Origin: Klebsiella phage fENko-Kae01
DNA: 64,000 nucleotides
Strand: one strand, 5' to 3'
Sequence record: OR228459.1
In this document: piece by piece, positions 26,954 through 28,465 of the stretch
Position numbering within the stretch: position 1 is the stretch's first letter
Layout: each line of letters begins with the position of its first letter
Translations under genes and position numbers: made by a program
Notes under the pieces: generated by a model
What the model was told of the DNA's origin: nothing
Databases searched by the model: none
Seen by the model: only the letters and a program-made list of their open reading frames with translations

Positions 26954-27118
26954 ATGATTCAGGCAATTCTAGTAATCGCGGTTCTTGGTATTCTTGCAGC
27001 CATCGGACAAATTGGTTTTGCGATTTGGATGGGTATGGCAGTCGCAGTTGTTCTTGTAATTAAGCGTGGTGTGGCTTCGTATGAAGCATCAAAATCACAA
27101 GAAGAAATCGTAGAATAA
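26954..27118 (+). CDS. small membrane protein (54 aa)
   Basis: RBS aaagggg; hydrophobic. Confidence 0.4.
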   Translation: MIQAILVIAVLGILAAIGQIGFAIWMGMAVAVVLVIKRGVASYEASKSQEEIVE

Positions 27119-27129
27119 ATTTAAAATGG

Positions 27130-27182
27130 CGATCTGGTTGACAACCGATCTGGTTGACAACATTATAACAATCCCATATAAT
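27130..27182 (+). promoter_or_regulatory. tandem 16-bp direct repeat cgatctggttgacaac x2 overlapping a TTGACA-N17-TATAAT promoter
   Basis: two perfect tandem copies, each with its own TTGACA. Confidence 0.5.
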
Positions 27183-27218
27183 AAACGTCTGGTTAATTAT
27201 AAAAGGTATATTTAAATA

Positions 27219-28436
27219 ATGAAAAAAGCTATTCTGGGAATTACAATTGGTATCGTACTATCATCCACTAATGTTTATGCAAATGACAATAATAACACAT
27301 ATAATTATGGGGATTTAACAGGTTCAGCAGTTTTCAACAATAAAAATAATACTGAAATTAATGTGAATGGAAATGTATCTGGTTCTGTTGCAATTTACGG
27401 CGATAAAGTAACTGTCATTGAGCGTGGAGAGAAAGGCGAAACCGGGGCTAATGGTAAAGACGGTAAAGATGGTCTTAATGGCAAAGATGGTAAAGACGGT
27501 AAAGATGCAGACATGACGATCGTCAATAATAAAGTTGATAAAAGTGATTACGATGTAGATCAAAAACGCCATGAAGAAAATTTAAATACATTAAAAGACG
27601 GAATTGAAACATGGAATAATTGGGCTTCTCATGATTCTAAAGAACAATGGGATTCTATTATTGATTTAGAAGATAATAAAGCTAATAAAAAAGATCTTGA
27701 GTCAGAAACACAAACACGTGTAAATGAAAATAAAAAATTACATGAAAAGATTGATAATTCTATTGAAAATCAATCATCGCGGGACAATGAACAAGATATT
27801 CTAATTAGTAATAAAGTGGATAAATCAACTTTTGAAAATGAATCAACACTCATGAAGGATGTAATTGACACTAAAGTAGATAAAACATCGTTTGAAGATG
27901 AAATCATCATTATCAAAAAGAGAAATAGCGAAAGTCAAAATAACATTGATAAAAATAAAAATGAACAAGATTTCATTAATAAAAATCAAAATGTAAGTAT
28001 TAAAAATAATACAAATGCAATTGAGGTTGAACGTGAAGAACGCAAGCAATCTATTTCTTCTGTAAATACAAAATTGAATAATCATGAATCACGTATTGAA
28101 TCAAATACTCAAAGAATCAATACAGTGGAAAAAAGAACCAATGAATTTATGCATTCAACAAATAAACGGTTTTCTGAAATGAATAAAAAAATCGACGAAA
28201 ATCGTAAAATTTCCAGTGCTGGTATCGCTAGTTCCGGTGCAATGGCAAACATTCCACAATTATCTAAATATGGTGATTTTTCAATTGGGGCAGGTGTTGG
28301 TGGATATGATGGTCAAGAAGCAATTGCAGTAGGTTTTAGTGCACGGATTTCTGAAAATGTATCAACTAAAGCATCCGTAAGTACTAATACTCAATCTGAA
28401 GTATTGTGGGGTGCTGGTGTAGGAATTGAATGGTAA
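27219..28436 (+). CDS. trimeric-autotransporter-adhesin-like protein: signal peptide, collagen-like G-x-D-G-K repeats, coiled-coil stalk, YadA-like C-terminal anchor
   Basis: MKKAILGITIGIVLSSTNVYA signal; GKDGKDGLNGKDGKDGKD; C-terminus SSAGIASSGAMANIPQ...GAGVGIEW. Confidence 0.75.
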   Translation: MKKAILGITIGIVLSSTNVYANDNNNTYNYGDLTGSAVFNNKNNTEINVNGNVSGSVAIYGDKVTVIERGEKGETGANGKDGKDGLNGKDGKDGKDADMTIVNNKVDKSDYDVDQKRHEENLNTLKDGIETWNNWASHDSKEQWDSIIDLEDNKANKKDLESETQTRVNENKKLHEKIDNSIENQSSRDNEQDILISNKVDKSTFENESTLMKDVIDTKVDKTSFEDEIIIIKKRNSESQNNIDKNKNEQDFINKNQNVSIKNNTNAIEVEREERKQSISSVNTKLNNHESRIESNTQRINTVEKRTNEFMHSTNKRFSEMNKKIDENRKISSAGIASSGAMANIPQLSKYGDFSIGAGVGGYDGQEAIAVGFSARISENVSTKASVSTNTQSEVLWGAGVGIEW

Positions 28437-28446
28437 TATAATAAAT

Positions 28447-28465
28447 GGGGGTTGACATTGCCCCC
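28447..28465 (+). terminator. GC hairpin gggggttgacattgccccc (terminator-like, embeds TTGACA)
   Basis: perfect 5-bp G/C stem; no strong T-run. Confidence 0.35.

What the first reader, a model, noticed from the sequence alone, without database searches (positions are those of the whole stretch)
27130..28436. Phage-encoded trimeric-autotransporter-like protein with collagen repeats, preceded by a tandem 16-bp repeat promoter
ORF 27219-28436 has a classic Sec signal peptide and GKDG collagen-like triplet repeats. It has a long heptad-rich, Asn/Lys-rich stalk. Its C-terminus is SSAGIASSGAMANIPQ...GAGVGGYDGQEAIAVGFSARISENVST...GAGVGIEW. That matches the YadA-type membrane anchor of trimeric autotransporter adhesins, including the terminal aromatic residue. 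A TAA inserts into the outer membrane of the infected cell and is not an obvious virion part. In a lytic-looking early region that suggests superinfection exclusion, cell-surface remodelling, or a lysogenic-conversion-type moron. Upstream, cgatctggttgacaac is duplicated in perfect tandem at 27130-27161. That gives two -35 hexamers, one correctly spaced to a TATAAT, and is suggestive of regulator binding or promoter strengthening by duplication.
Basis: partly seen in the sequence, partly recalled or inferred. Interest (0 to 1): 0.68.

Follow-up and report, generated by a model that had tools for sequence, protein, structure and literature searches.

The report
Phage-encoded outer-membrane fibre (YadA-type autotransporter)
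A lytic jumbo phage carries an early-expressed gene for a bacterial-style trimeric autotransporter fibre that should be planted in the outer membrane of the infected cell. Such genes have been noted in many phages, but their role has not been tested in any paper I could search. The upstream 16-bp repeat is a quirk of this one isolate.

Summary
ORF 27219-28436 (405 aa) has four parts:
- a classical Sec-type signal peptide;
- nine uninterrupted Gly-X-Y triplets;
- a helical, Asn/Lys-rich stalk of about 235 residues;
- a C-terminal YadA anchor (Pfam E=1.1e-18). The AF2 model's best PDB matches are the Hia, AtaA and YadA anchors.

The protein is 100% identical to CDS_420 of the lytic, flagellum-specific Klebsiella jumbo phage fENko-Kae01. 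There it was annotated as unknown but detected by LC-MS/MS (47 spectra) in a crude >300 kDa fraction.

It belongs to a large family found almost only on phage-sized contigs: signal peptide, N-terminal cap, collagen, coiled coil, YadA anchor. The family occurs in jumbo, N4-like and other virulent phages. Collagen copy number is a 27-bp VNTR (9 to about 30 triplets among near-identical phages).

The consensus promoter TTGACA-17-TATAAT is conserved in all six relatives. The 16-bp tandem repeat (a 22-bp insertion) occurs only in this window, so a conserved regulatory role is not supported.

Function is untested. I infer a surface fibre on infected cells. Adhesion/aggregation (about 0.35) and steric exclusion of other phages (about 0.30) are nearly equally likely. 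It is a new member of a known, already annotated kind.

The parts
27130..27161 (+). Perfect tandem duplication of CGATCTGGTTGACAAC. Relative to all relatives it is a 22-bp insertion that creates a second, distal -35 hexamer (27138-27143).
   Evidence: TRF: 2.0 copies, 100% match. It is absent from Munch, 7t3, SE_PL, PHA46, L006 and L007. No match was found in the viral, genome or metagenome collections.
27154..27182 (+). Consensus sigma-70-type promoter, TTGACA-17-TATAAT, for the TAA gene. In relatives an A/T-rich tract lies directly upstream of the -35. In the window that tract is displaced by 22 bp.
   Evidence: 12/12 match. It is one of 11 perfect sites in the window, all on the + strand, against 0.14 expected. 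It is conserved in all six relatives.
27203..27206 (+). Shine-Dalgarno-like AAGG, 12 nt before the ATG.
   Evidence: Read from the sequence. The Munch record annotates an RBS at the equivalent place.
27219..27281 (+). Sec-type signal peptide, residues 1-21 (MKKAILGITIGIVLSSTNVYA | ND). It has no lipobox cysteine.
   Evidence: rule-based. The same MKK-plus-hydrophobic N-terminus occurs in 121 of 129 homologues.
27282..27425 (+). N-terminal (distal) cap, residues 22-69. It is a degenerate copy of the family's roughly 50-aa cap: the QC...C cysteine pair and about 7 residues are missing.
   Evidence: Alignments. A cap HMM hits 100 of 129 homologues, always together with collagen. AF2 confidence here is low.
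27426..27506 (+). Collagen-like block, residues 70-96: nine G-X-Y triplets made of three 27-bp units. It is a VNTR.
   Evidence: Members of the 90% identity cluster are 405, 423, 432, 441, 450, 459 and 468 aa long, which are steps of 9 aa.
27507..28247 (+). Stalk, residues 97-343. It starts with the conserved collagen-to-helix junction DADMTIVN. Helices run 109-152, 157-199, 202-219 and 222-343, with breaks at KVDK(S/T) motifs. The last helix enters the barrel.
   Evidence: AF2, (pLDDT up to 98). The junction motif is present in 108 of 111 collagen-bearing homologues. KVDK motifs.
28254..28436 (+). YadA-type membrane anchor, residues 346-405, with four beta-strands (354-363, 366-376, 381-390, 395-403) and the C-terminal sequence IEW, followed by the stop codon.
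   Evidence: Pfam PF03895, E=1.1e-18. phmmer against PDB: 2LME 1.6e-10, Hia 1.5e-5. Foldseek top five hits are the Hia, AtaA and YadA anchors, TMt 0.64-0.86.

Best explanation
SHOWN
- The gene encodes a genuine type Vc (trimeric autotransporter) protein.
- It has its own conserved consensus host-type promoter, inside a block of early genes.
- The protein is made in quantity during infection by fENko-Kae01.

INFERRED FROM FAMILY KNOWLEDGE
- Host RNA polymerase transcribes it early and Sec exports it.
- Three chains each contribute four strands to a 12-stranded barrel, inserted by BAM.
- The passenger threads out C-to-N. The coiled coil forms first and nucleates the short collagen triple helix and the cap.
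- The result is a fibre of roughly 40-45 nm on the surface of the infected cell. It is not part of the virion.

INFERRED ROLE, about 0.35
The fibre acts as an adhesin or auto-agglutinin. It would keep the infected cell attached to neighbours or surfaces, so the burst is released among hosts. Steric exclusion of other phages is almost equally likely (about 0.30).

COLLAGEN BLOCK
It is a slippage-prone 27-bp VNTR that sets fibre length.

16-BP REPEAT
It is an isolate-specific insertion or duplication that copies the -35 hexamer. It is not a conserved control element.
For: Identity:
- Pfam, PDB sequence and fold matches to the anchor.
- Signal peptide.
- All 129 homologues end in W.

Expression:
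- The consensus promoter is conserved in six relatives.
- The GAP32 homologue has TTGACT-17-TATGAT upstream.
- CDS_420, 100% identical, gave 47 spectra in Table S3 of PMC11218385.

Not structural:
- The gene sits in a region of tRNAs and small ORFs, far from the structural genes CDS_232-290.
- The N4-like homologue lies between the RNA polymerase and dUTPase genes.
- PMC3728262 notes that the homologues are not near tail genes.
- T4-like phage mutants with deletions of the region holding the YadA homologue ORF145 were recovered as Abi escapers (PMC5449768).

Adhesin reading:
- The family precedent for trimeric autotransporters is adhesion.
- The distal modules vary while the proximal stalk and anchor are conserved.
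- There is a weak match to the collagen-like adhesin Lcl.
- Collagen-bearing bacterial autotransporters (VtaA) are known.

VNTR.
Against: - No experiment addresses localisation or function. The role is inference only.
- No canonical adhesive head or neck domain was detected.
- The window's cap is degenerate and its collagen block is the shortest in the family.
- Nine proline-free triplets may be marginal for a stable triple helix.
- If aggregation were homotypic, only infected cells would clump, and the benefit to the phage is then unclear.
- The MS abundance is comparable to that of the portal protein. Association with particles is therefore not formally excluded.
- The trimer was not modelled, and heptad periodicity was not significant.
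Confidence: 0.6

Rival explanations
1. Same molecule and display, but the selected function is exclusion. A dense lawn of roughly 40-45 nm fibres would sterically mask surface receptors. This would block superinfection by the same or competing phages, and would limit loss of progeny on cell debris.
For: - Early consensus promoter, among host-takeover-type small genes and membrane proteins.
- The gene occurs in at least four or five unrelated virulent phage lineages that probably use different receptors, which argues for a generic mechanism.
- From my own knowledge, early envelope proteins of lytic phages, such as T5 Llp, do this job.
Against: - There is no direct evidence.
- The primary receptor of fENko-Kae01 is the flagellum (PMC11218385), which an outer-membrane fibre lawn would not mask.
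- A passive shield would not obviously need exchangeable distal modules.
- The protein has no lipobox, unlike Llp, Cor and TraT.
Confidence: 0.3
2. It is a conversion-type moron that matters in a carrier or pseudolysogenic state. The phage would persist in bacterial isolates, and the host-promoter-driven adhesin would change the carrier's adhesion, biofilm formation or serum resistance.
For: - Near-identical genes sit on single contigs of 343-352 kb in at least 10 Salmonella enterica isolate assemblies.
- N4-like homologues sit on contigs of 70-72 kb labelled Salmonella enterica.
- The sigma-70 consensus promoter needs no phage factor.
- From my own knowledge, the prophage-encoded Eib proteins set a precedent. 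Three ECOR-9 records are among the hits.
Against: - No lysogeny genes were found in fENko-Kae01.
- A phage contig in an isolate assembly may simply reflect contamination or an ongoing lytic infection.
- Nothing is known about expression outside lytic growth.
Confidence: 0.12
3. It is a virion fibre or decoration protein, as several GenBank records ('tail protein', 'tail fibers protein') and the PHROG 'tail' category imply.
For: - Annotations seen.
- PHROG 17426 and 26246 are classed as 'tail'.
- Collagen repeats are common in phage fibres.
- 47 spectra in the fENko-Kae01 particle preparation, similar to the portal protein.
Against: - A Sec signal peptide plus a membrane beta-barrel anchor is topologically incompatible with assembly of virions in the cytoplasm.
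- The gene lies in the early region, far from the structural genes.
- The MS sample was only a 300-kDa ultrafiltrate. It contained many enzymes and membrane proteins, and its authors decline to make structural calls.
- The 'tail' labels most likely derive from the collagen repeats.
Confidence: 0.05
4. The 16-bp tandem repeat is a functional regulatory feature: an operator for a regulator, or a duplication that strengthens the promoter.
For: - The perfect repeat contains a full -35 hexamer.
- The distal copy is 17 bp from CATTAT, a 10/12 match, and now abuts the A/T-rich upstream tract.
Against: - It is absent from all six relatives, which keep the single consensus promoter.
- No similar motif recurs in the window beyond chance: one site with 3 mismatches, against 0.41 expected.
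- The two sites are 16 bp apart, so they would compete for polymerase rather than add.
- The insertion moves the UP-like tract away from the consensus promoter.
Confidence: 0.08

Closest known systems
YadA / Hia / AtaA: trimeric autotransporter adhesins (type Vc secretion)
   Same: - C-terminal anchor with four strands per chain, preceded by a helix.
- The terminal IEW is identical to that of YadA.
- Sec signal peptide.
- Elongated helical passenger.

   Different: - No YadA-like head, neck or Pfam stalk repeats.
- The passenger is a cap, collagen and a very polar coiled coil.
- It is encoded by a strictly lytic phage rather than by a pathogen's chromosome or plasmid.
'Adhesin' / 'agglutinating adhesin' / 'YadA-like' genes of virulent phages: phiEco32, FSL SP-058/076, vB_SalP_TR2, GAP32 gp424, fHe-Yen9-04 g441; PHROG 17426
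   Same: - Homologous anchor and proximal stalk: 31-58% identity, and PHROG E=1e-56.
- Many share the architecture signal peptide, cap, collagen, junction, coil, anchor.
- All lie in early or middle, non-structural regions.
   Different: - The window copy has the fewest collagen triplets (9, against a median of 36), a degenerate cap without cysteines, and the longest stalk among the collagen-type members.
- GAP32 and Yen9-04 carry other N-terminal modules instead of the cap and collagen.
- No member was found to have a tested function.
VtaA, the virulence-associated trimeric autotransporters of Glaesserella (Haemophilus) parasuis
   Same: A YadA anchor combined with collagen triple-helix repeats in the passenger (PMC6211672).
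   Different: - VtaA proteins are chromosomal, much larger and head-bearing.
- Only the domain-level parallel was established. No specific sequence relationship was tested here.
Eib immunoglobulin-binding proteins of E. coli prophages
   Same: They are phage-borne trimeric autotransporters. Three records with host ECOR-9 are among the tblastn hits. That these records are the eib prophages rests on my own knowledge.
   Different: - Eib proteins come from temperate prophages and are expressed by lysogens.
- They have head and neck domains and Ig-binding stalk regions.
- They lack collagen.
Collagen-like surface adhesins with VNTRs: Legionella Lcl and Streptococcus Scl
   Same: - A charged, proline-poor GKD-type collagen block whose copy number varies between strains.
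- A weak NCBIfam match to Lcl (E=2.1e-5).
- That Lcl and Scl have VNTRs rests on my own knowledge.
   Different: They are anchored differently, not through a YadA barrel. The NCBIfam score is far below the family cut-off (23 against 500 bits).

Membership tests
Trimeric autotransporter adhesin (type Vc) | C-terminal YadA-type anchor domain (PF03895) | tested here: met
   E=1.1e-18, 67.4 bits against a gathering score of 22.7. phmmer against PDB: 2LME 1.6e-10, Hia 1.5e-5.
Trimeric autotransporter adhesin (type Vc) | Anchor fold: a helix entering the barrel plus four beta-strands per protomer | tested here: met
   AF2 strands at 354-363, 366-376, 381-390 and 395-403, after helix 222-343. The Foldseek top five hits are the Hia, AtaA and YadA anchors, rmsd 1.6-2.2 A. 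This is a monomer model only.
Trimeric autotransporter adhesin (type Vc) | N-terminal Sec signal peptide | tested here: met
   MKK, a 13-residue hydrophobic core and VYA|N. This is a rule-based check; SignalP was not run.
Trimeric autotransporter adhesin (type Vc) | C-terminal aromatic residue (beta-signal) | tested here: met
   The protein ends in GVGIEW. YadA ends in NIEW. All 129 homologues end in W.
Trimeric autotransporter adhesin (type Vc) | Trimeric coiled-coil stalk | tested here: inconclusive
   A long helix is predicted with high pLDDT. Heptad periodicity did not beat shuffles. No trimer model was possible.
Trimeric autotransporter adhesin (type Vc) | Head and neck domains (Ylhead/Hep_Hag, neck). 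These are common but not obligatory. | tested here: not met
   No such Pfam family was found at E<=1.
Trimeric autotransporter adhesin (type Vc) | Outer-membrane localisation, SDS-stable trimer, adhesive activity | not testable with these tools
   This needs fractionation, heat-modifiability gels, and adhesion or aggregation assays.
Collagen triple-helix repeat proteins (PF01391) | Uninterrupted Gly-X-Y repeats that reach the Pfam threshold | tested here: inconclusive
   There are nine perfect triplets, but the score is 23.7 bits against a gathering score of 27.2. Cluster mates with 15-30 triplets carry PF01391 in the precomputed annotation.
Collagen triple-helix repeat proteins (PF01391) | Formation of a stable triple helix | not testable with these tools
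   AF2 confidence is low over residues 69-98. CD spectra and melting curves of a recombinant trimer are needed.
Phage cap-collagen-YadA family (informal; PHROG 17426 / 26246) | Signal peptide, ~50-aa cap, collagen, G-x-D-A-D-M-T/S junction, coil and anchor in this order | tested here: met
   PHROG E=1e-56 and 3e-46. The junction DADMT is present. The cap HMM finds 100 of 129 homologues, including P0125, which is identical to the window protein. The cap is degenerate and has no Cys pair.
Phage tail fibre / virion structural protein | Encoded in the structural module, made in the cytoplasm, present in purified virions | tested here: not met
   - It has a signal peptide and a membrane anchor.
- It lies in the early tRNA region.
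- MS detection came only from an unpurified >300 kDa fraction, so presence in the virion remains untested.
Lipoprotein-type exclusion proteins (T5 Llp, Cor, TraT) | Lipobox with an invariant Cys at the cleavage site | tested here: not met
   There is no cysteine anywhere in residues 1-30. Similarity of function is not excluded by this.

The most novel reading that the evidence does not exclude
Virulent phages of several unrelated lineages deliberately make their dying host sticky. An early-expressed, length-tunable collagen and coiled-coil autotransporter would glue the infected cell to uninfected hosts or to surfaces, or mark carrier-state cells. The burst would then be delivered at point-blank range, which would be a bacterial analogue of a virological synapse. 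A side consequence is that 'virulence-gene-free' therapeutic phages would transiently equip pathogens with a YadA-class adhesin.
Probability: 0.2. Interest if true: 0.75.

Novelty: new member of a known kind. Interest (0 to 1): 0.4.

Why it matters
Three points.

1. Annotation and safety. The identical protein in fENko-Kae01 is filed as 'unknown function', and the phage was declared free of virulence-associated genes (PMC11218385). Yet it encodes, and abundantly makes, a YadA-family outer-membrane protein. Standard screens miss this class.

2. An open biological question. Homologues have been remarked on in virulent phages in papers from 2013 onward (PMC3728262, PMC5449768, PMC10654107). I found no functional test in the held literature, and a 2026 jumbo-phage review does not mention them. 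The conserved architecture, the early promoter and proven expression make this a tractable model for asking why lytic phages remodel the surface of a cell they are about to lyse.

3. A practical point. The 27-bp collagen VNTR breaks or opens short-read assemblies (7t3, SE_PL, PHA46). It also provides a natural length series for structure-function work on a transition from collagen to coiled coil.

Tried and rejected
- Cap-domain profile search against 5.8 billion proteins. It returned one 86-aa fragment, so I could not tell whether the cap occurs outside YadA-anchored proteins.
- Exact-pattern scans for the inserted and the ancestral promoter forms in the viral, genome and metagenome collections. 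All returned nothing, so the insertion could not be polarised beyond the six relatives.
- Exact-protein contig look-up for the window protein. It is not on record, although an identical cluster member exists.
- Fourier and heptad test for a coiled coil. The peak at 3.55 residues was not above shuffles, so I rely on the AF2 helices instead.
- The GAP32 proteome paper is not held. The Eneladusvirus paper and the jumbo-phage review do not mention the gene.
- Literature searches for a tested function (superinfection exclusion, aggregation) gave only genome-annotation remarks.
- Considered and rejected:
  - Lipoprotein: there is no Cys.
  - Spanin-like lysis role: there is no supporting feature.
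  - The repeat as an operator: it is not conserved.
  - The downstream GGGGG/CCCCC hairpin as an intrinsic terminator: there is no U-tract.
Full report
WHAT IS THERE

The window comes from a jumbo myovirus.
- Bases 15001-40000 are 97.7% identical to Salmonella phage Munch over 97% of their length.
- The 4 kb around the finding is 98% identical to Munch, 7t3, PHA46 and SE_PL.

ORF 27219-28436 (+) encodes 405 aa. It is 100% identical to WNV47523.1, which is ENKO_420 / CDS_420 of Klebsiella phage fENko-Kae01. The window's first eight tRNAs have the same identities as the eight reported for that phage. The window is therefore that phage or a near-identical isolate.

fENko-Kae01 is a 360-kb phage with no lysogeny genes, and it uses the flagellum as its receptor (PMC11218385).

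ANATOMY OF THE PROTEIN

- Residues 1-21 form a classical Sec-type signal peptide: MKK, a hydrophobic core, then VYA|ND, with no lipobox cysteine. This is a rule-based judgement, because SignalP was not available.
- Residues 22-69 form a short N-terminal module. This is the distal end in an autotransporter.
- Residues 70-96 are nine uninterrupted G-X-Y triplets, proline-free and rich in GKD. The Pfam Collagen match is E=4e-5, just below the gathering score.
- A motif DADMTIVN follows the collagen block.
- AlphaFold2, run as a monomer with a 38-sequence alignment, then predicts helices at 109-152, 157-199, 202-219 and 222-343. pLDDT reaches 98. The breaks fall at the repeated KVDK(S/T) motifs.
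- Four beta-strands follow, at 354-403.
- The C-terminal 60 residues match the Pfam YadA_anchor with E=1.1e-18, 67 bits against a cut-off of 22.7.
- phmmer against the PDB finds the YadA anchor 2LME (1.6e-10) and the Hia anchors (1.5e-5). The terminal IEW is identical to that of YadA.
- Foldseek with the model returns the anchors of Hia, AtaA and YadA as its only five significant hits (TMt 0.64-0.86, rmsd 1.6-2.2 A).
- No head, neck or stalk Pfam domain is present.
- From standard rises per residue, the fibre would be about 35 nm of helix plus about 8 nm of collagen.
- The stalk is strongly polar and rich in Asn and Lys. A crude heptad test was not significant overall, so 'coiled coil' rests on the AF2 helices and on family precedent.

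THE FAMILY

A search of 5.8 billion proteins gave 272 hits. Nearly all carry PF01391 plus PF03895 and sit on contigs of about 70-72 kb or about 340-370 kb, which are phage sizes.

tblastn found homologues in 85 phage records:
- jumbo relatives: GAP32, fHe-Yen9-04, Kaldavass, XbC2;
- N4-like phages: TR2;
- phiEco32-like phages;
- FSL SP-058/076;
- Pantoea and Erwinia phages;
- the 160-kb Salmonella phage SKML-39.

These are variously annotated as 'adhesin', 'agglutinating adhesin', 'YadA-like protein', 'tail protein' or 'hypothetical protein'. PHROG 17426 ('adhesin') matches at E=1e-56.

Among 129 full-length homologues:
- 111 have collagen, with 6-57 triplets and a median of 36.
- 100 have a conserved cap of about 50 aa, and 90 of these carry a QC...C pair.
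- The cap never occurs without collagen.
- 108 of the 111 collagen-bearing members share the junction G-x-(D/N)-A-(D/N)-(M/V)-(S/T).
- All 129 end in Trp.

The window's copy is an outlier. It has the fewest triplets, and its cap has lost the cysteines and about seven residues. The jumbo relatives GAP32 and Yen9-04 carry other N-terminal modules. The distal end is therefore exchangeable, while the proximal stalk and the anchor are conserved.

Bacterial autotransporters that contain collagen repeats are already known: VtaA of Glaesserella parasuis (PMC6211672).

THE VNTR

- Members of the 90% identity cluster are 405, 423, 432, 441, 450, 450, 459 and 468 aa long, which are steps of 9 aa.
- The DNA shows 27-bp units, each encoding GKDGKDGLN: three in the window, seven in Munch, and nine in two Salmonella-assembly contigs.
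- The records of 7t3, PHA46 and SE_PL start or end inside this block. Their copy numbers are therefore unreliable.
- Outside the VNTR, the window and Munch differ by seven non-synonymous changes. All fall in residues 223-252. The anchor is invariant.

EXPRESSION SIGNALS AND THE TANDEM REPEAT

The window holds 11 perfect TTGACA-N16-18-TATAAT sites, all on the + strand, against 0.14 expected. It also holds 10 tRNA genes and many small ORFs. This is an early region read by host polymerase.

One of these sites (27154-27182) lies 36 nt upstream of the ATG. It is conserved in Munch, 7t3, SE_PL, PHA46 and two Salmonella-assembly contigs. GAP32 has TTGACT-17-TATGAT in front of its homologue.

The perfect 16-bp tandem at 27130-27161 is real. 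Relative to all six relatives it is a 22-bp insertion plus one G-to-A change. The relatives read AAAATGG|GGTTGACAGC. The insertion has two effects:
- It creates a distal -35 hexamer 17 bp from CATTAT, a 10/12 match.
- It moves the A/T-rich tract that abuts the -35 in the relatives two helical turns away from the consensus promoter.

The unit does not recur in the window beyond chance. Neither form was found in other collections. The simplest reading is an isolate-specific duplication or slippage event with unknown, probably modest, effect. A conserved regulatory role is not supported.

EXPERIMENTAL EVIDENCE FROM THE LITERATURE

In fENko-Kae01, CDS_420 gave 47 spectra and an intensity of 4.65e5. 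For comparison (Table S3):
- portal protein: 52 spectra, intensity 5.3e5;
- tail sheath: 31 spectra;
- major capsid protein: 106 spectra.

This proves expression. However, the phage was purified only by 300-kDa ultrafiltration. The sample also contained DNA polymerase, RecA, RNR, kinases and neighbouring small proteins. Among them is CDS_423, a protein of 163 aa, which is the length of the window's membrane-family ORF 29218-29709. The authors warn that virion membership cannot be concluded. Outer-membrane fragments or vesicles would be retained by such a filter.

Earlier papers noted yadA homologues in virulent phages and left the function open:
- PMC3728262 reports that the genes are not near tail genes.
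- PMC5449768 reports that the homologue lies in a region deleted in viable escape mutants of T4-like phages.
- PMC10654107 lists it as the commonest 'virulence AMG' of N4-like phages.
- A 2026 review of jumbo phages does not mention it.

HOW IT MOST LIKELY WORKS

Shown:
- the identity as a type Vc autotransporter;
- its own conserved consensus promoter;
- abundant synthesis during infection;
- a position outside the structural module.

Inferred from established knowledge of type Vc secretion:
- Sec exports the chain.
- BAM-dependent assembly builds a 12-stranded barrel from three chains.
- The passenger is exported C-to-N.
- The coiled coil forms first and nucleates the collagen helix and the cap.
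- Because export and a membrane barrel are incompatible with virion assembly in the cytoplasm, the fibre should decorate the infected cell and its debris, not the particle.

The role is inference only. I rank four possibilities:
- Adhesion or aggregation, about 0.35. This follows the family precedent, the variable distal modules and the collagen VNTRs seen in other adhesins.
- Steric exclusion of further phage adsorption, about 0.30. This follows the early timing and the gene's presence in phages that probably use different receptors. The flagellar receptor of this phage argues against simple receptor masking.
- A conversion-type role in carrier states, about 0.12. Whole phage contigs recur in Salmonella isolate assemblies.
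- A virion fibre, about 0.05.

VERDICT

The finding is a new member of a known and already annotated kind: close relatives carry the names 'YadA-like family protein' and 'adhesin'. The promoter-repeat idea is not supported. The interest lies in the unanswered question of what these fibres do for lytic phages, and in the mis-annotation of a therapeutic-candidate phage.

Noticed in passing
window 28482-28564 (+): A tRNA-like element lies just downstream of the gene.
- It has a GGTTCGATTCC T-loop, a 7-bp acceptor stem and a long variable arm.
- Its anticodon loop GUUCAUA gives anticodon UCA, which would read UGA.
- ARAGORN and Rfam at gathering threshold do not call it. The best match is a weak tRNA-Sec hit (19.3 bits, E=0.22).
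- Its fold energy is no better than that of shuffles.
- It is 100% conserved in Munch, PHA46 and L006.
It could be a pseudo-tRNA or an odd suppressor.
   Followed up: partly
window 1210-60408, + strand: There are eleven perfect TTGACA-N16-18-TATAAT promoters, all on the + strand, against 0.14 expected by chance. They are interspersed with 10 tRNA genes. This marks a long early region read by host polymerase.
   Followed up: partly
L006, L007 (GCA_035921345.1, GCA_019551135.1) and cluster members: Near-complete Munch-like phage genomes (contigs of 343-352 kb) appear in at least 10 Salmonella enterica isolate assemblies. N4-like contigs of 70-72 kb with the homologous gene are likewise labelled Salmonella enterica. 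This suggests a carrier state, pseudolysogeny or contamination.
   Followed up: no
window ~27367-27490; records MK773491, PP191103, MT001829: The deposited genomes of 7t3, PHA46 and SE_PL are opened or broken inside the collagen VNTR. PHA46 annotates a 493-aa 'tail protein' that runs across the record origin. Their repeat copy numbers and annotations are unreliable.
   Followed up: partly
window 15001-40000: The fENko-Kae01 paper reports less than 31% intergenomic identity to any phage. Yet this 25-kb stretch is 97.7% identical to Munch at 97% coverage. Either the similarity is regional, or the published comparison missed the Munch group.
   Followed up: no
window 27885-27974 (residues 223-252 of the ORF): All seven amino-acid differences from Munch, L006 and L007 outside the VNTR cluster in a 30-residue stretch of the stalk. 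The cap, the junction and the anchor are identical. This could be a recombination patch or local diversification.
   Followed up: no
window 26954-27118 and 29218-29709: Small membrane proteins flank the gene.
- A 54-aa, very hydrophobic protein lies directly upstream (PHROG 25076, 'membrane protein').
- A 163-aa protein lies downstream (PHROG 14894, 'membrane protein'). The fENko-Kae01 MS table lists CDS_423, a protein of the same length, with 7 spectra.
   Followed up: partly
window 28447-28465: A GGGGG-N9-CCCCC hairpin lies immediately after the stop codon. Its loop holds the -35 hexamer (TTGACA, 28452) of the next promoter-like site, TTGACA-17-TAAAAT. No U-tract follows, so it is not a canonical terminator.
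   Followed up: no
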